Shown here: positions 1 through 64,000 of the stretch, piece after piece
Layout of the letters: each line of letters starts with the position of its first letter
How positions within the stretch are numbered: the first letter of the stretch is position 1
DNA from: Okamejei kenojei
Taxonomy: Eukaryota
Assembly: GCA_035221665.1 (NCBI GenBank)
Contig: CM069148.1
Coordinates: 28,768,001-28,832,000, forward strand
Length of the DNA stretch: 64,000 nucleotides
Direction of reading: 5' to 3'
Made by a program: the position numbers

Positions 1-3000
1 TGCCATCAATAAATTACAATAATAGAGCCACATCCTGCATTTCAGTCTATTTAGCCACCTGTTCTAAATCTGTATGTCACTGACGTTTTTAGCTGTTTGA
101 AGTCACAGCAGTACCAGGAGGCTGCCAAATCTCTCTCTCTGCAGGCAAGGACAGCACTTCAATCCAGTGTTCATTTTCAAGGAAAGCTGTTCATCTTGGA
201 AATAATGAGGTGGGGGCAAAAAAGTATTTAGATTTCAAAATTATAATACCTTATTTACATTACACCTCTTGCACAAAACTGGATGGTAAAGACAAATTCT
301 TACTCCTAACCCAAAACATATGATACCAAAGTATAATTTTTTTAAAGTGTGGGGGTTAGCAGATTCATTTGCTGGTCGTAAATGTAAAATAATATTTAAA
401 ATTAATCTCCAGAGTGCCTTTTTATGGCAATGCCTTATTTTGTATGCAATGAAATAAGTGCAAATATTTGAACTAAAGATGAATGTCAGTACTAGAGAAT
501 AGAAAGTTTGTAGCATTTTCTGTGCAGTGTTAAAAACAGCTCTGTGACTTTCATGATAAGAATTACTACAGCATGAAGCTCCCCCTTGCCTTGTCGTTAT
601 GGTTTAAATGAAGATTCCATCACTCCCTGGACAAGTTTGTACAATTAAATATGTTAAAACTGCAGGGCATTTTTATGCATGATCATCAGACTCATTCCAG
701 TCAAGTACAGGATTGGGAGGTTGCAGAGTCATTCAGTATAGCAGTATGGCAGGAGAATGGGGGTTGAGGGGGAAGGATAGATCAACCATGCATGAATGGC
801 GGAGTAGACCCGATGGGCTGAATGGCCTAGTTCTGCCCATATAACATGAACTTATATCACACTCCTGGACTTACTGGAACTACGTTTTTTGGGGGAGGGT
901 GGGGGTGAAGTGGAGAAATGTCTAAGGCTTTAAATGCAAAGGAAGGACAACACAGCACCGACAATAGTGTCTCACCAGGCCTCGTTATTGGGCATTCTGT
1001 CGGCATTTCAGGAGGAGTCTACCAGAATAACACAAATGGGATCAATGTTTTTGAGACTGAAATTACACTTTTAATCTGTGTACTGGGATACATTCAGAAA
1101 CAGTTGCACATAGTGTCAGGGCTATTCCCAGCCAGAGAAGAAATGATTGTGTAATCCCACTGTCAACCTGGTGACCACACTTCTGTAAGTGACTTAGATG
1201 CACATAAACCTGTGTATAATTTTCTTCTGTTTATTGCCCTTACCTAGAAAATCACCCTGGCTTCATTGGAAAAATTGCTGTAGTTTCTGGTCACTTACAC
1301 TTGGTCCATTCTGAGCAAATGAATTGCCTGCTCTAATATAGATTGTCTGGATATAATGGCCCCATCAATAACTCATTGTTTAACACTACTGTCAATGGAC
1401 ACACATTTAAAACAAAAATTAGCCACAGTTAATGCACAAACCTTCAGTCAATGCTCAATTGTTGTTCATTGTCTCTTCAATATAATTGTGATGGCATTTT
1501 CATTGATGCTTTCCATAGTACAGTTGTTTGTTACTGTGGAAGAGAACAGGGTATGAGGGGCAGTAATATGGGGTATCAATTACACCAGAGGGAATTATAT
1601 ACCTGGGATACCAGCGATGGAAGAAGGGTATTATGATATTATGAAAAAATGTTCAGCAGTGAAGGAGAGGTTGCAAATAAAACTAGATGATGATACTTTG
1701 TTTCAGTAAATAGTTTTATTGGATAACTGGTCAATTTATTTGCTTGGAGACATGATCTGTTTGTTTAGTTGGAGGATGTGGATGATGCTTGTGGGAACAA
1801 CATTTAATAACTTTGATAAAGGGCTGATGGGCACTCTCCTGAACCACTGTCATTTGTCTGAAAGTGCTCCCGCAATGCTGTTAGTTAGGAAGCTTTAAAA
1901 TTGAAATCAAGTGAAGGTGAAGGGATGGTAATATATTTCCTAAATTAGTGTGGTGCGTGACTAGATAGGGATAAAGAAATGGGGGCCTACTTCCCTTGGC
2001 CCAATTGTATTGTTGATTGAAACCTTGGCTTTGGGAAGTGCAGGCTTTGGTAACTTTAGTAAGCAACTGCTATATTGATACAAACTGGGTGATGATTGAT
2101 GGAGTGAACCCTAAAGTAGATGGAGTTGATGTTTAGGGTGGTAGACAGATGCTATTAATTTGATGCTAATTATTTATTGCTAATTATCTGAAAAAAAGAA
2201 GGCACCAATTTTACTGAAACAGAATGGATTCAGTGACACAGCAGCAGGAAAGCCCAAAGCAAAAAGGTTTAAGTAAAACACACAAAGTGTTAAGTAACTC
2301 AGAGGGTCAGGCAGCATGTCTGCAGAATATGGATAGGAGATAGAAACAAGAAACTGCAGATACTGATTTACAAAAAATAATCTATGGATAGGGTATCGTT
2401 CAAGTCAGGTCCCTTCTTCAGACTATGAGGAAGGGTCCTAACCTAAAACATCGCTTAAACATGTACTTCAGACATGCTGCCCGACCTGCGTTACTTCAGC
2501 ATACTGTGACTTGTTTTTGGTCAACCAGCAACTGCAGTTCCTCATGTCGAATGTTTAACGACGTGTGCTTATTCCATTATGGCCAGATCTCTAAAGCAAC
2601 ACAGATAGATTGTTCAAGCAAAGATCATTGTGATGAAATAGCTAATGTGAAGAAGTAATTTAATTTGGGGCTGTGCTGCAATGGGTGATTGGTCAAGCAC
2701 TGTTTAGAACATGCATCCAGATATTACCCCTTCATTATATCTCACCTAACCTAAACTGAAGCTTTATGTTGTGATTTAGAGAAGGATAGCGTGGAGCTCT
2801 TGGACACAACTACTGAGGATGTTTAGTGAAGAAATTCTGTGATTCAATGAGGGTAAACAAAGAGAAGGACTGATTAGGTTGGGAGAGTGGGCAGAGAAGT
2901 GGCAGATGGAATATAGTGTAGCAAAGTGTGAAGTCATGCATTTTGTTAGTAGGAATAAAGGCATAGATTATTTTCTAAATAGGGAGAGAATCTAGTAATC

Positions 3001-61649: not shown

Positions 61650-64000
61650 TTGACTCCATTCAAGGACCCAAGCAGTCTTTCCAGGTTCAGCAGAGGTTCA
61701 CCTGCACCTCCTCCAACCTCATCTATTGCATCCGCTGCTCTAGGTGTCAGCTGCTCTACATCTGTGAGACCAAGCGGAGGCTTGGCGATCGCTTCGCCCC
61801 ACACCTGTGCTCGGTTCGCATTAACCTACCTGATCTCCCGGTAGCTCAGCACTTCAACTCCCCCTCCCATTCCGAATCCGACCTTTCCGTCCTGGGCCTC
61901 CTCCATGGCCAGAGTGAGTCCCACCGTAAATTGGAGGAGCAGCATCTCATATTTTGCTTGGGCAGTTTACACCCCAGCGGTATGAACATTGACTTCTCTA
62001 ATTTCAGGTAGTCCCTGCTTTCTCCTCCCCTTCTCAGCTCTCCCTCAGCCCATTGTCTCCGCCTCTTCTTTTCTTCTTCCCGTGCCCCTCCCCCCACCCT
62101 CACATCAGTCTGAAGAAGGGCCTCGACCCAAAACGTTGCCTATTTCCTTCGCTCCATAGCTGCCTCACCTGCCGAGTTCCTCCAGCATTTTGTCTCACCT
62201 AAGAGAAAGAGCAGTACTTTGGAAGTGTTGTTGTAACATAAGGAATATGGTGACCACAACACAAGATGCTGGAGGAACTCAGCGGGTCAAGCAGCATCCT
62301 TGGAGGGAATGGACAGGCAAAGCTTTGAGCCGAAGCCCTTTGTCAGACTGGGTGGATGGGGAGTGAGAGCAGAACTGCACAAACTGAGATGACACAGTAA
62401 GGGCTCCATCCACATCAACAGTGCTCTGTAAAAGGGTTCCAATCCTAAACATTGTCCATTCCTTCCACAGATGCTGCCTGACCTTTTGAGTTCCTCCAGC
62501 ACTTTGTGTTTTGCTCAAGGTCCGACATCTGCAGTTCCTTGCGTCCTCGTTCTAACTCGCTTGAATTTGATGGCATTAAAAATGCTGCCTGATAAATCGG
62601 CTGCCATTTCCTTTTGACTGAGACTGGAAATGTACATTACATTGTACAGCTGAGCGAGATAAATGGAGTTGATATCAGCAGCAATTGCATTTAGATTTCT
62701 CGTCGCTGAGCAGAATATATTCTCGCGGCATGTATGGTTAATTACATCATTTCTAATTAAACCCTGTGTTGATGCAGAAGCTGTTCAGTGTTTTGCCTCA
62801 TTAAAATAAAAAAAGGGACTTGGAGTCATTCAATTGGGAATGAAGCTGTTGTGTATATGTTTGAAAAAGCAAGCACGATATTAAGAAAGTCATTGAAATT
62901 CTGTGTGAGAGCAAGTAAATTGATCCCAGTATAATTCTCAGTAGGTCACTTTATATTGGATTGGTCAAGGTTGACTAATCAGAAATAGTTTGCCCTTGCC
63001 CAGAGCTGTGCGAATTATGCAACACGTTAGGACAATGAGTTACATAAACGGATGCATTACCAAGCAGGAATAAAATATTATTACAGTAATGCAGTTTGTT
63101 CTGATGCCAAATTCAAAGGGCTTTATAAATTCATTACACATTTTTGTTTAATCTGCTAAAGCAAGTAAATATTTTTTTTGCAAACTTAACATTTAAATTT
63201 ACAGAGTGGGCAGAATAATGTGAGTTGTTTGGACTCACCGAGTCTGCGCCGACCATTGATCACCGATTCACACCCAGTCCTACATAACTCAACTTTCGCA
63301 TGCACTCCCGGCACCCTAGGCAATTTTAATTTTAGAGGCCAATTAACCTACTAACTCGCACGTCTTTGGGAAGTGGGAGGAAACCGGTGCACCTGGAAGA
63401 AACCCACAATATTGTCACAATATTGCACATCAAGGGATGCATCAACAGTTCTGTACTTAAGGGCCTGTCCCAGCAGCATGCAACTCCATGTGATGAGCGC
63501 GACCTAACGTGGTCGCTTGAGCCGTCCGGCGTCGCGGGGCCGGTCCCACTTCGATCGCCGGAGCCGTGCGGAATTGTGCGGAGTACGTCCCGATATCGCG
63601 CGGGGCTCCGAAAAACTGACCATGTTCAAAAATTCCGCGCGAAAAAGGCTTGTTGGCTCGCAGTAGCCTTGACGCATTACACACTGCCTCGACGTCGTGC
63701 CTCCATGACCCTCTCTGTAGGTGCCTCCGTGACCCTCTCTGTAGGTGCCTCCGTGACCCTCTCTGTGTGTGCCTCTGTGCCCCTCTCTGTGTGTCCCTCT
63801 CTGTCCTGGCGAACTTACCTTTAAGACTTCGCTCCAAGTTGGCCTCACTTTGCGCCGCTTTGCGCCACTCACCCCACCTCCGCGCGGCCCCCGCAGCCGG
63901 TTTGGTCGCGCTCTTCGCATGCAGGCGCATGCTGTTGGGAACGGCCCTGTACAGGGATCACCCGACCTCCGCGCGGCCCCCGCTTCTAGTTTGATCGCGC

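What the first reader, a model, noticed from the sequence alone, without database searches (positions are those of the whole stretch)
2278..62545. A family of small TSD-flanked fold-back elements built only from the Penelope pLTR/hammerhead unit
Seen: more than ten copies of one ~100-nt unit. They are often head-to-head hairpins (2278-2545, 4716-4938, 18604-18788, 53988-54231, 62255-62545) and several have 9-13-bp direct repeats (6660/6782, 18591/18789, ~27043/27238, 37692/37817). The same unit ends the GIY-YIG-coding element at 61330-62200. Inference: a non-autonomous, ribozyme-associated (retrozyme-like) retroelement system mobilised by the Penelope RT/GIY-YIG enzyme. I do not know whether it has been characterised in batoids beyond repeat-library entries.
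Basis: partly seen in the sequence, partly recalled or inferred. Interest (0 to 1): 0.65.

Follow-up and report, generated by a model that had tools for sequence, protein, structure and literature searches.

The report
Truncated Penelope retrotransposon ends, often hairpins
The small hairpin repeats are real, but they look like the ordinary debris that Penelope-like retrotransposons leave when copying stops early and a second, inverted arm is made, not a separate ribozyme-driven element family.

Summary
A profile of the ~138-nt unit finds 35 pieces (31 with E<=1e-5), covering 5.1% of the window. Eight loci are head-to-head hairpins. Six insertions have significant 9-14-bp flanking direct repeats. 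The same unit ends two GIY-YIG-coding fragments, whose closest relatives are skate proteins carrying RT plus GIY-YIG.

Outer (3') ends fall into two discrete classes about 38 nt apart. Inner (5') ends and hairpin junctions differ at every locus, so no fold-back master copy is visible. Only 4 of 35 pieces keep an intact minimal hammerhead, and the motifs in a hairpin lie on opposite strands. No tandem retrozyme arrangement exists in the window.

Each feature is already described for Penelope-like elements (PLEs): heavy 5' truncation, an adjacent inverted copy with a palindromic junction, an optional 30-40-bp tail on one arm, short target duplications, nicking and extension of both target strands, and two reverse-transcription start sites (PMC8557442, PMC3846280, PMC11167929). 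The pieces are best read as dead-on-arrival products of Penelope integration in a skate genome. This is a new member of a known kind and of low interest.

The parts
2277..2548 (.). Hairpin H1. Left arm (minus) has the short end; right arm (plus) has the long end. Both arms reach about model position 4-7. The left arm is split by a nested insertion.
   Evidence: nhmmer pieces 2277-2340(-) model 34-98, 2386-2425(-) model 4-43 (E 0.67), 2421-2548(+) model 4-135. No significant flanking repeat (p~0.12).
2338..2381 (-). Nested ~44-nt insertion made only of the terminal tail of the unit.
   Evidence: nhmmer 2343-2372(-) model 106-135, E 0.007. Direct repeat 2327-2337 / 2382-2392, 10 of 11 matches, p~0.011.
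4716..4937 (.). Hairpin H2. Left arm has the short end; right arm has the long end (tail). The arms abut.
   Evidence: 4716-4802(-) model 10-98 and 4803-4936(+) model 5-137, gap 0. Self-alignment gives a 0-nt loop. Only a 7 of 8 flanking repeat, p~0.29.
5079..5192 (-). Diverged solo unit.
   Evidence: nhmmer model 6-129, E 1.6e-7; 66% identical to the window consensus.
6673..6779 (+). Solo unit with the short end. It has the best-preserved minimal hammerhead motif in the window and is flanked by a target duplication.
   Evidence: nhmmer 6686-6779 model 5-99. Repeat 6658-6672 / 6780-6794, 14 of 15, p~0.004. Motif descriptor intact at 6689.
7524..7677 (.). Hairpin H8. A 10-nt inverted left arm (model ~97 to 87), 8 nt of filler, then a right arm of model 7-137 followed by a further 10-nt copy of model ~87-97.
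   Evidence: nhmmer 7542-7667(+). The short arms are my reading. Direct repeat 7513-7523 / 7678-7688, 10 of 11, p~0.011.
12146..12244 (-). Solo unit, 5'-truncated, long end.
   Evidence: nhmmer model 40-135, E 9e-14.
18604..18788 (.). Hairpin H3, the youngest. Left arm has the tail; right arm has the short end. The centre is palindromic at about model position 27.
   Evidence: Fold z = -16.4. 1-nt loop. Arms 87.4% identical and each other's nearest or second-nearest relatives. Repeat 18590-18603 / 18788-18801, 13 of 14, p~0.004.
19990..20077 (-). Solo unit, short end, with pyrimidine-rich sequence upstream.
   Evidence: nhmmer model 5-91; flanks.
27056..27236 (.). Hairpin H4. Left arm is complete with the tail. 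Right arm covers only model 73-100 (short end). A 25-nt spacer separates them.
   Evidence: nhmmer 27054-27186(-) and 27212-27239(+). Repeat 27042-27055 / 27237-27250, 13 of 14, p~0.004.
29701..29783 (+). Solo unit, short end.
   Evidence: nhmmer model 8-90.
35215..35307 (-). Solo unit, short end.
   Evidence: nhmmer model 9-101.
36978..37036 (+). Solo unit, 5'-truncated near model 36, short end.
   Evidence: nhmmer model 36-98.
37701..37814 (-). Solo unit truncated inside the hammerhead region, with the long end and a weak target duplication.
   Evidence: nhmmer 37705-37822(-) model 5-135. Repeat 37691-37700 / 37815-37824, 9 of 10, p~0.04.
39623..39804 (+). Head-to-tail partial tandem of two units, both lacking the hammerhead region.
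   Evidence: 39623-39709 model 39-124 and 39714-39804 model 41-136, gap 4.
40472..40565 (+). Solo unit, short end, motif descriptor intact.
40745..40840 (+). Solo unit, short end, motif descriptor intact. It is not a tandem partner of 40472.
   Evidence: The two loci share only 92 nt at 76% identity.
41696..41747 (.). Mini hairpin H7 made of tail sequence only.
   Evidence: 41716-41747(+) model 99-130, E 1.4e-4. 41696-41714(-) model 103-121, E 0.85. 0-nt loop. No flanking repeat.
42085..42122 (+). Short fragment of the hammerhead region.
   Evidence: nhmmer model 11-48, E 0.0026.
45800..46020 (+). Unit of a subfamily that continues into a different ~125-nt 3' extension.
   Evidence: Aligned with 48713-48954(-); 88% identity over 191 nt.
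48713..48954 (-). Second copy of that subfamily, with the hammerhead region present.
49774..49849 (-). Solo unit fragment.
   Evidence: nhmmer model 6-97.
51031..51755 (-). Longer 5'-truncated Penelope-like copy. The GIY-YIG-like coding remnant (51360-51755) has two internal stops. The unit lies at 51031-51119.
   Evidence: blastn 74.4% over 355 nt to 61653-62005. tblastn with skate and shark homologues. Translation.
53988..54233 (.). Hairpin H5. Both arms have the tail. The left arm starts at model 32 and the right arm at model <=4.
   Evidence: Fold z = -21.9. Arms 83.8% identical. No flanking repeat, p~0.96.
57615..57680 (-). Solo unit, 5'-truncated, short end.
   Evidence: nhmmer model 41-105.
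60630..60759 (-). Solo unit, long end.
   Evidence: nhmmer model 6-137.
61339..62200 (+). Longest Penelope-like fragment. It holds the C-terminal coding part with a GIY-YIG-like domain (to the stop at 62009-62011), interrupted by an 81-nt poly-C run. About 98 nt of 3' UTR follow, then the unit with the short end (62107-62195).
62258..62545 (.). Hairpin H6. Left arm has the short end; right arm has the tail. Both reach model 5-6. A 74-nt spacer of unassigned origin separates them.
   Evidence: Arms 71.4% identical. No significant flanking repeat.

Best explanation
These are dead-on-arrival insertion products of an autonomous Penelope-like retrotransposon (PLE) in a skate-like genome.

Proposed mechanism:
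1. The element's RT/GIY-YIG enzyme nicks both target strands about 9-15 bp apart.
2. It starts reverse transcription at one of two internal sites near the 3' end of the element's RNA. This gives ends with or without a ~38-nt tail.
3. It usually stops after only 40-200 nt.
4. A second, inverted arm is made from the other nick, or by the new cDNA priming on itself where synthesis stopped. This gives head-to-head hairpins inside one target duplication.

The minimal hammerhead motif lies about 65-130 nt from the 3' end and is carried along as a passenger.

Shown here: the anatomy, meaning the ends, junctions, duplications and the link to the coding fragments. Inferred from published work on other PLEs: the enzymology.
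For: From the window:
- The unit ends two coding fragments (61339-62008 and 51360-51755). Their closest relatives are skate, ray and shark proteins at 81-57% identity. Of 4 homologues scanned, 3 match GIY-YIG at E 2.5e-4 to 8e-3 and one matches RVT_1 at 69 bits.
- 3' ends are bimodal. Of 35 pieces, 16 end at model 90-107, none at 108-123, 18 at 124-137 and 1 at 48.
- In 6 of 8 hairpins (H1, H2, H3, H4, H6, H8) one arm has the long end and the other the short end.
- Hairpin junctions differ at every locus. Three have 0-1-nt centres at different unit positions.
- Three insertions have direct repeats at p~0.004, two at p~0.011 and one at p~0.04.
- In the two youngest hairpins the arms rank among each other's closest relatives, 1st-2nd and 2nd-5th of 30.
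- Very short products exist: a 44-nt tail-only insertion and 10-nt arms.

From the literature:
- PMC8557442 (passages): high 5' truncation, an inverted 5'-truncated copy adjacent, and a 30-40-bp tail often at one end only.
- PMC3846280 (passages): palindromes at the inverted junction, read as self-priming; 8-10-bp duplications; a 31-bp tail on one of the inverted repeats.
- PMC11167929 (Main text): the anole element nicks and extends both strands, uses two internal start sites that define the tail, and does not need hammerhead cleavage in vitro.
- PMC4209133 (parts 1-2 of the text): in Schistosoma, paired minimal hammerheads 100-700 bp apart on opposite strands, with most motifs single and probably from truncated PLEs.
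Against: - No full-length element, RT-coding sequence or direct pseudo-LTR pair lies in the window, so the autonomous parent is inferred from homologous proteins only.
- Pfam does not call the window's own GIY-YIG fragment (E 0.25, 12.1 bits against a cut-off of 22.6).
- Five of 8 hairpins lack a detectable target duplication. I attribute this to age, since copies are 66-93% identical to the consensus, but that is an assumption.
- Sequence upstream of the hammerhead region cannot be aligned between copies. True 5' ends of the 23 pieces that start at model position 11 or lower are therefore mostly unknown.
- Some clustering of ends just 5' of the motif (about model 4-14) is not explained.
- A 64-kb window cannot show that no hairpin junction recurs elsewhere in the genome.
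Confidence: 0.8

Rival explanations
1. The fold-backs and solo units are a self-standing non-autonomous family, retrozyme-like or SINE/MITE-like. They are transcribed, perhaps processed by the hammerhead, and remobilised in trans by the Penelope enzyme.
For: - The 3' ~100-140 nt carry both inferred start sites.
- In Adineta vaga, pseudo-LTR sequences alone sufficed for integration in trans (PMC3846280, passages).
- A 2026 preprint argues that animal retrozymes derive from PLE pseudo-LTRs and reports them in its one sampled cartilaginous fish (abstract and passages).
- Units make up 5.1% of the window while only 2 of about 27 insertions reach coding sequence.
Against: - No two loci share a 5' end or junction.
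- Motifs in a hairpin are on opposite strands, so one transcript has only one sense motif. The minimal motif is thought to need a second copy in the same sense to act as a dimer (PMC4209133).
- Only 4 of 35 pieces pass the motif descriptor.
- At most 3 of 35 pieces start within 3 nt of the predicted cleavage site, and one of these is an artefact of a nested insertion.
- There is no tandem array. The one close same-strand pair shares only the unit.
- Upstream sequences are unrelated, so there is no common head.
Confidence: 0.08
2. The hairpins arose after insertion, by inverted duplication of solo copies through replication template switching or repair.
For: Palindromic centres with 0-1-nt loops are also what fold-back repair produces.
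Against: - In H3, H4 and H8 the whole hairpin sits inside one direct target duplication.
- The outer end of each arm falls at one of the two element-specific end classes rather than running into flanking DNA.
- All 6 opposite-strand pairs with gaps up to 74 nt other than one are head-to-head. The 2 tail-to-tail neighbours are 62 and 142 nt apart and involve separate insertions.
Confidence: 0.04
3. They are miniature inverted-repeat DNA transposons that only resemble the Penelope tail.
For: Terminal inverted repeats, small size and flanking direct repeats.
Against: - The two termini of one element usually differ by about 38 nt, in 6 of 8 hairpins.
- Matched direct-repeat lengths vary from 9 to 14 bp.
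- Solo, non-inverted copies with the same ends and duplications exist, for example 6673-6779.
- The arms are collinear with the 3' end of RT/GIY-YIG-coding fragments.
Confidence: 0.02

Closest known systems
Inverted or 5'-truncated pseudo-LTR arrangements of endonuclease-containing PLEs (Adineta vaga Pen families, PMC3846280; general scheme in PMC8557442)
   Same: Head-to-head inverted copies, palindromic junctions, an optional 30-40-bp tail on one arm, short target duplications of variable length, heavy 5' truncation, and partial head-to-tail tandems (39623-39804 here).
   Different: Here almost nothing lies between the arms, so whole insertions are 44-290 nt. The host appears to be a skate. 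No full-length parent is present in the window.
PAc (Poseidon of Anolis carolinensis) in vitro system, PMC11167929
   Same: Two adjacent reverse-transcription start sites whose spacing equals the tail. Both target strands are extended. The hammerhead is dispensable for insertion.
   Different: In PAc the hammerhead overlaps the start of the ORF and synthesis starts 111-118 nt into the ORF. Here the motif lies about 98 nt after the stop codon of the coding fragment, and whether the unit also precedes an ORF could not be tested. Nothing was assayed here.
Minimal hammerheads of metazoan PLEs, PMC4209133
   Same: In the window consensus and in the copy at 6689: a CUGANGA box, one extra nucleotide before helix II, a G-C closing pair of helix II, a GAAA box, and a palindromic ACGU in place of helix III followed by C.
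   Different: No Rfam hammerhead model matches. There is no covariation among the window copies. Most copies have lost the core by CpG decay. Cleavage is untested.
Non-LTR retrozymes of animals, PMC7229834 and bioRxiv 10.64898/2026.07.22.740005
   Same: Small, non-coding, hammerhead-bearing, related to PLE terminal sequence, with larger target duplications.
   Different: Retrozymes are head-to-tail tandem repeats of 150-450 bp with canonical type I hammerheads, expressed as circular RNAs. Here the arms are inverted, the motif is the minimal variant, and no tandem array is present.
Twin priming of human L1
   Same: Both 3' ends of a staggered break prime cDNA synthesis, giving an inversion inside one target duplication.
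   Different: L1 twin priming joins two different parts of the RNA. Here both arms copy the same 3'-terminal part.

Membership tests
Penelope-like element (insertion product) | [quoted passage not shown] | tested here: inconclusive
   Only C-terminal coding remnants are in the window (61339-62008, 51360-51755). Pfam GIY-YIG on the window fragment scores E 0.25, below the cut-off. Of 4 homologues scanned, 3 match GIY-YIG (E 2.5e-4 to 8e-3, below the cut-off) and one matches RVT_1 at 69.1 bits. No Penelope-type RT-coding sequence lies in the window.
Penelope-like element (insertion product) | High degree of 5' truncation with a fixed 3' end | tested here: met
   3' ends fall in two classes, with 34 of 35 pieces in them. 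Model start positions are scattered from 4 to 106, and two copies extend more than 600 nt upstream.
Penelope-like element (insertion product) | Adjacent inverted 5'-truncated copy, head-to-head, often with a palindromic junction | tested here: met
   There are 8 head-to-head loci. 0-1-nt centres occur in H2, H3 and H7.
Penelope-like element (insertion product) | Optional 30-40-bp tail, often at one end only | tested here: met
   The two end classes lie about 38 nt apart. One long and one short arm occur in H1, H2, H3, H4, H6 and H8; both arms are long in H5.
Penelope-like element (insertion product) | Short target site duplications | tested here: met
   Six insertions have 9-14 matched bases at p 0.004-0.04. 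Five hairpins have none detectable.
Penelope-like element (insertion product) | Direct pseudo-LTRs flanking the ORF | not testable with these tools
   The window holds no full-length copy, and no eukaryotic genome collection was available.
Minimal hammerhead ribozyme of PLEs | CUGANGA and GAAA boxes, an extra nucleotide before helix II, a G10.1-C11.1 pair, palindromic 15.2-16.2, and H17 | tested here: met
   The descriptor scan found 4 sites in the window, against a mean of 0.105 and a maximum of 1 in 200 shuffles. The copy at 6689 and the window consensus show all features. The other 31 of 35 pieces fail or lack the region.
Minimal hammerhead ribozyme of PLEs | Structure supported by covariation, and self-cleavage | tested here: inconclusive
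   Helix II is paired in 82.4% of cells against 83.1% in shuffles, with 1 compensatory cell, across 17 copies. No Rfam hammerhead hit was found. Cleavage is not testable here.
Non-LTR retrozyme | Head-to-tail tandem repeats (150-450 bp monomers), each with a hammerhead | tested here: not met
   Of 22 neighbouring pairs of motif-bearing pieces, one is same-strand and within 450 nt (40472/40745). It shares only the 92-nt unit at 76% identity. TRF found no such array.
Non-LTR retrozyme | Canonical type I hammerhead with loop-loop contacts; circular RNA | tested here: not met
   The motif is the minimal variant without helix III, and no Rfam Hammerhead match was found. Circular RNA is not testable here.
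MITE / fold-back DNA transposon | Equivalent termini on both arms and a duplication of fixed length | tested here: not met
   The termini differ by about 38 nt in 6 of 8 hairpins. Matched repeat lengths are 9-14 bp.
SINE with a Penelope tail | A common pol III-type head 5' of the tail | tested here: not met
   Sequences 5' of the unit are unrelated between copies. Rfam found no tRNA, 5S or 7SL hit at gathering score. That negative is weak, because the window's tRNA-like SINE family was also not reported.

The most novel reading that the evidence does not exclude
The terminal ~100-140 nt hold both start sites. In rotifers such terminal sequence suffices in trans. Some of these mini-units or hairpins may therefore be re-transcribed and re-mobilised genome-wide, forming a Penelope-driven non-autonomous family that a 64-kb window is too small to reveal. 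Alternatively, the near-perfect hairpins (H3, H5) may yield small RNAs directed against the very region that the Penelope enzyme needs.
Probability: 0.12. Interest if true: 0.5.

Novelty: new member of a known kind. Interest (0 to 1): 0.2.

Why it matters
- These pieces make up about 5% of the window, and their hairpin shape invites miscalling as MITEs, miRNA-like hairpins or retrozymes. Reading them as Penelope debris prevents that.
- They are natural footprints that agree with features so far shown in vitro for one lizard element and by comparative work in rotifers: two start sites, use of both target strands, and palindromic junctions. A genome-wide tabulation in a skate would be a cheap test of those mechanisms in a cartilaginous fish.
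- Nothing here changes what is known about how these elements work.

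Tried and rejected
- Rfam, whole window at gathering score (0 hits) and at E<=10 (12 hits, none a hammerhead), and on the best copy alone (4 hits, none a hammerhead). The models do not see this minimal motif.
- Covariation in helix II across 17 copies: no signal beyond shuffles.
- Pfam on 58 of the 77 stop-to-stop ORFs of 90 aa or more. Only a LINE RT and endonuclease at 44062-45907(-) scored; the GIY-YIG fragment was missed at E<=0.01.
- Retrozyme-type tandem at 40472/40745: rejected.
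- Target duplications for H1, H2, H5, H6 and H7: none significant. By eye, H2 sits inside another repeat with a 7 of 8 match, which is not significant.
- Aligning sequence upstream of the motif to define true 5' ends: not alignable.
- The self-alignment centre estimates for H1, H4, H5 and H6 run through spurious gapped alignments, and I did not use them.
- Folding of single units as RNA: z -0.46 to -1.73, not better than shuffles.
- 5' ends at the predicted cleavage site: at most 3 of 35, so no enrichment.
- Pyatkov et al. 2004 by DOI: not held.
- Searches for a description in cartilaginous fishes and the Squalomix preprint (passages; no occurrence of 'Penelope') found nothing. I therefore cannot say whether this family is in print beyond repeat libraries.

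Full report
WHAT IS THERE

The window has no N. At the coordinates given, the sequence shows a ~100-140-nt unit in both orientations. A 140-nt seed from 54094-54233 found 31 blastn HSPs. I aligned 13 copies and built a 138-position profile from 9 of them. That profile found 35 pieces at E<=1, of which 31 had E<=1e-5. They cover 3,237 bases (5.1% of the window), 18 on the plus and 17 on the minus strand. The 9 training copies match by construction. Copies are 66-93% identical to the window consensus, and the median pairwise identity is 72% over 453 pairs. These are therefore old, diverged repeats of several subfamilies.

ANATOMY OF THE UNIT

From 5' to 3' the unit has three parts:
- a hammerhead-like core at model positions about 8-35;
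- a body that runs to about position 100;
- an optional further ~38 nt.

The 3' ends of the 35 pieces are sharply bimodal. Sixteen end at positions 90-107, none at 108-123, 18 at 124-137 and one at 48. The 5' starts are not recurrent. Twenty-three pieces start at position 11 or lower, at or near the edge of the model. The rest start at 20, 26, 32, 34, 36, 39, 40, 41, 41, 73, 99 and 106.

Sequence upstream of the core is pyrimidine-rich in several copies but cannot be aligned between copies. True 5' ends are therefore known only in two situations: where a target duplication or a hairpin centre fixes them, or where coding homology continues.

LINK TO A PENELOPE-LIKE ELEMENT (PLE)

Two copies continue upstream into coding remnants, 61339-62008(+) and 51360-51755(-). 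They are 74.4% identical over 355 nt. The second has two internal stop codons.

The translated 61652-62008 (P0001) has a GIY...YIG-type pattern, but Pfam scores it only E 0.25, at 12.1 bits against a cut-off of 22.6. A search among longer proteins found 22 relatives at E<=1e-3 among 65 candidates. The best were Leucoraja erinacea (81% and 83% identity), Rhinoraja longicauda, Mobula hypostoma and Chiloscyllium punctatum. Of four relatives scanned, three match GIY-YIG at E 2.5e-4 to 8e-3, and one matches RVT_1 at 69.1 bits directly upstream of it.

tblastn with six relatives hits only those two window loci, apart from a cross-hit of the RT part on an unrelated LINE at 44230-44624. The unit is thus the 3' end of an RT/GIY-YIG retroelement of skates. 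The stop codon is at 62009-62011, the core starts at 62110 and the copy ends near 62198.

HAIRPINS

All eight are head-to-head, with tails outward.

| Hairpin | Coordinates | Inner ends (left / right arm, model position) | Centre | Outer ends |
|---|---|---|---|---|
| H1 | 2277-2548 | about 4-7 / about 4-7 | - | short / long |
| H2 | 4716-4937 | 10 / 5-9 | arms abut, 0-nt loop | short / long |
| H3 | 18604-18788 | about 27 / about 27 | 1-nt loop | long / short |
| H4 | 27056-27236 | model edge / 73 | 25-nt spacer | long / short |
| H5 | 53988-54233 | 32 / <=4 | - | long / long |
| H6 | 62258-62545 | 5-6 / 5-6 | 74-nt spacer | short / long |
| H7 | 41696-41747 | 103 / 99 | 0-nt loop | tail sequence only |
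| H8 | 7524-7677 | 87 / 7-9 | 8-nt filler | short / long plus extra |

- H1's left arm is split by a 44-nt nested insertion that consists only of tail sequence.
- H7's left arm is a weak hit (E 0.85).
- H8's 10-nt left arm is my own reading.
- H3 and H5 fold far better than shuffles, with z = -16.4 and -21.9 and 0 of 200 shuffles as good.
- Among neighbours no more than 150 nt apart, 6 pairs are head-to-head (gaps -40 to 74), 2 are tail-to-tail (gaps 62 and 142, between separate insertions) and 2 are same-strand.
- In H3 and H5 the two arms are among each other's nearest relatives (ranks 2 and 1, and 2 and 5, of 30). In the older hairpins this signal is lost.

TARGET DUPLICATIONS

I tested flanks against 1000 random flank pairs.
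- Whole hairpins H3 and H4 and the solo copy at 6673-6779 have 13-14 matching bases, p~0.004.
- H8 and the nested 44-nt insertion have 10 of 11, p~0.011.
- The solo copy at 37701-37814 has 9 of 10, p~0.04.
- H1, H2, H5, H6 and H7 have none (p 0.12-0.96).

Not all hairpins are demonstrably flanked.

THE HAMMERHEAD

I wrote a descriptor after the published minimal motif (PMC4209133; parts 1-2 of the text read). It requires:
- a CUGANGA box;
- an optional extra nucleotide;
- a helix II of at least 4 bp;
- a GAAA box.

It finds 4 sites in the window (6689, 40475, 40748, 54101), against a mean of 0.105 and a maximum of 1 in 200 shuffles. The window consensus and the copy at 6689 also show three further features the authors list as emerging from their data:
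- an extra nucleotide before helix II;
- a G-C closing pair;
- a palindromic ACGU followed by C.

Evidence against a working ribozyme in these copies:
- Rfam reports no hammerhead at any threshold, even on the best copy alone.
- Helix II shows no covariation: 82.4% of cells paired against 83.1% in shuffles, with one compensatory cell across 17 copies.
- The two CpGs that carry G12 and C15.2 have decayed to CA or TG in 10 of 24 and 13 of 25 copies.

The motif belongs to the parent element's consensus. Most copies here are dead.

WHY THIS IS NOT A SEPARATE FOLD-BACK OR RETROZYME FAMILY

A family copied from a master fold-back would share inner junctions. Here every junction is different.

Retrozymes of animals are head-to-tail tandem repeats of 150-450 bp with canonical type I hammerheads, expressed as circular RNAs (PMC7229834, passages; bioRxiv 10.64898/2026.07.22.740005, abstract and passages). 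Here the arms are inverted, so a transcript carries one sense motif only. TRF finds no such array. The single close same-strand pair (40472/40745, 273 nt apart) shares only the unit, at 76% identity. At most 3 of 35 pieces start within 3 nt of the predicted cleavage site, and one of those is an artefact of the nested insertion in H1.

HOW IT MOST LIKELY WORKS

Each feature matches what is already described for PLEs.
- PMC8557442 (passages) describes high 5' truncation, partial tandems, and often an inverted 5'-truncated copy immediately adjacent. It also describes a 30-40-bp tail that is often present at one end only.
- PMC3846280 (passages) describes inverted pseudo-LTRs within 8-10-bp duplications and a 31-bp tail on one of the inverted repeats. 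It also describes palindromes at the inverted junction, interpreted as self-priming, with head-to-head the commonest arrangement.
- PMC11167929 (Main text read) shows that a purified anole enzyme cleaves and extends both target strands. It starts reverse transcription at two adjacent internal sites whose spacing is the tail, and it does not need hammerhead cleavage.

I therefore read the window's pieces as abortive insertions. In this reading:
- Both nicks of a staggered break prime on the 3' end of the element's RNA at either start site.
- Synthesis stops after 10-200 nt.
- The arms are joined head-to-head.

The centres with 0-1-nt loops at three different unit positions (H2, H3, H7) fit copy-back of the nascent cDNA. 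The asymmetric junctions (H4, H5, H8) fit two independent primings. H8 has a 10-nt copy starting at the short site next to each copy of the duplication, which fits use of the same start site from both strands. These mechanistic steps are inference from anatomy plus the cited work. Nothing was assayed here.

NOVELTY

The kind is known. What may be new is only the instance: a skate family and the very small size of whole insertions (44-290 nt). My searches found no description in cartilaginous fishes. Repeat libraries and paper supplements could not be consulted.

LIMITS

- There is one 64-kb window, with no full-length parent and no eukaryotic genome collection. Recurrence of junctions elsewhere cannot be excluded.
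- The 5' end distribution is partly hidden by the edge of the model.
- A modest cluster of ends just 5' of the core (about positions 4-14, in H1, H2, H8 and the copies at 29701, 35215, 37701 and 60630) remains unexplained.

Noticed in passing
8583-8867; also 15701-15972, 17598-17883, 35472-35781, 38849-39106, 42884-43128, 50299-50528, 53118-53333, 58707-58931: A second interspersed repeat family of ~270 nt with about 9-10 copies at 68-79% identity. Its start looks tRNA-like to my eye, so it is probably a SINE. Rfam reported no tRNA there.
   Followed up: partly
44062-45907 (-): LINE fragment. Three consecutive ORFs match RVT_1 (34 bits and 17 bits) and the endonuclease-reverse transcriptase domain Exo_endo_phos_2 (34.8 bits). 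It is unrelated to the Penelope unit, although a unit copy (45800-46020) abuts its 5' side.
   Followed up: no
61569-61649 and 58433-58490: An uninterrupted 81-nt poly-C run sits inside the Penelope coding fragment, and a second C-rich tract (two 35-nt units) lies 3 kb upstream. This is either a microsatellite-like expansion or an assembly problem.
   Followed up: no
45810-46020 (+) and 48713-48921 (-): Two unit copies, 88% identical over 191 nt, continue past the usual short end into a shared ~125-nt sequence that the other copies lack. This is probably another subfamily with a different 3' terminus. They lie tail-to-tail, 2.7 kb apart.
   Followed up: partly
7709-7732, 17275-17298, 57593-57616; flanks of 4716-4937 and 29701: A third repeat is marked by a 24-nt motif (3 matches with up to 3 mismatches; 0 expected by chance). 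It lies next to, or is interrupted by, several unit copies. This could be nesting by chance or a preferred target.
   Followed up: partly
16893-17016: A 124-nt inverted repeat scores as mir-30-like on both strands, below the Rfam cut-off (39.2 and 34 bits against 50.2). It is probably just a hairpin repeat. Nearby, 16348-16490 is 87.5% identical to 27901-28044.
   Followed up: no
56590-56990: A ~400-nt minisatellite with nested periods of 9, 19, 28 and 56-99 nt. Its unit contains a short motif that resembles part of the unit's tail as it appears in the decayed copy at 4900-4925. The unit profile does not hit it.
   Followed up: no
54097-54233, 27052-27186(-), 7542-7669, 18601-18712(-): In 4 of 4 long-ended copies folded as RNA, the same long-range stem forms between the body (about model 51-62) and the tail (about 112-122). 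It encloses the short start site. Overall energies are no better than shuffles, with z from -0.46 to -1.73.
   Followed up: partly
43313-43532: A 220-nt CT-rich low-complexity tract gives spurious plant-miRNA-like Rfam hits below threshold.
   Followed up: no
3381-3714 and 26176-26528: Another dispersed repeat pair, 73% identical over 357 nt. It was not identified.
   Followed up: no
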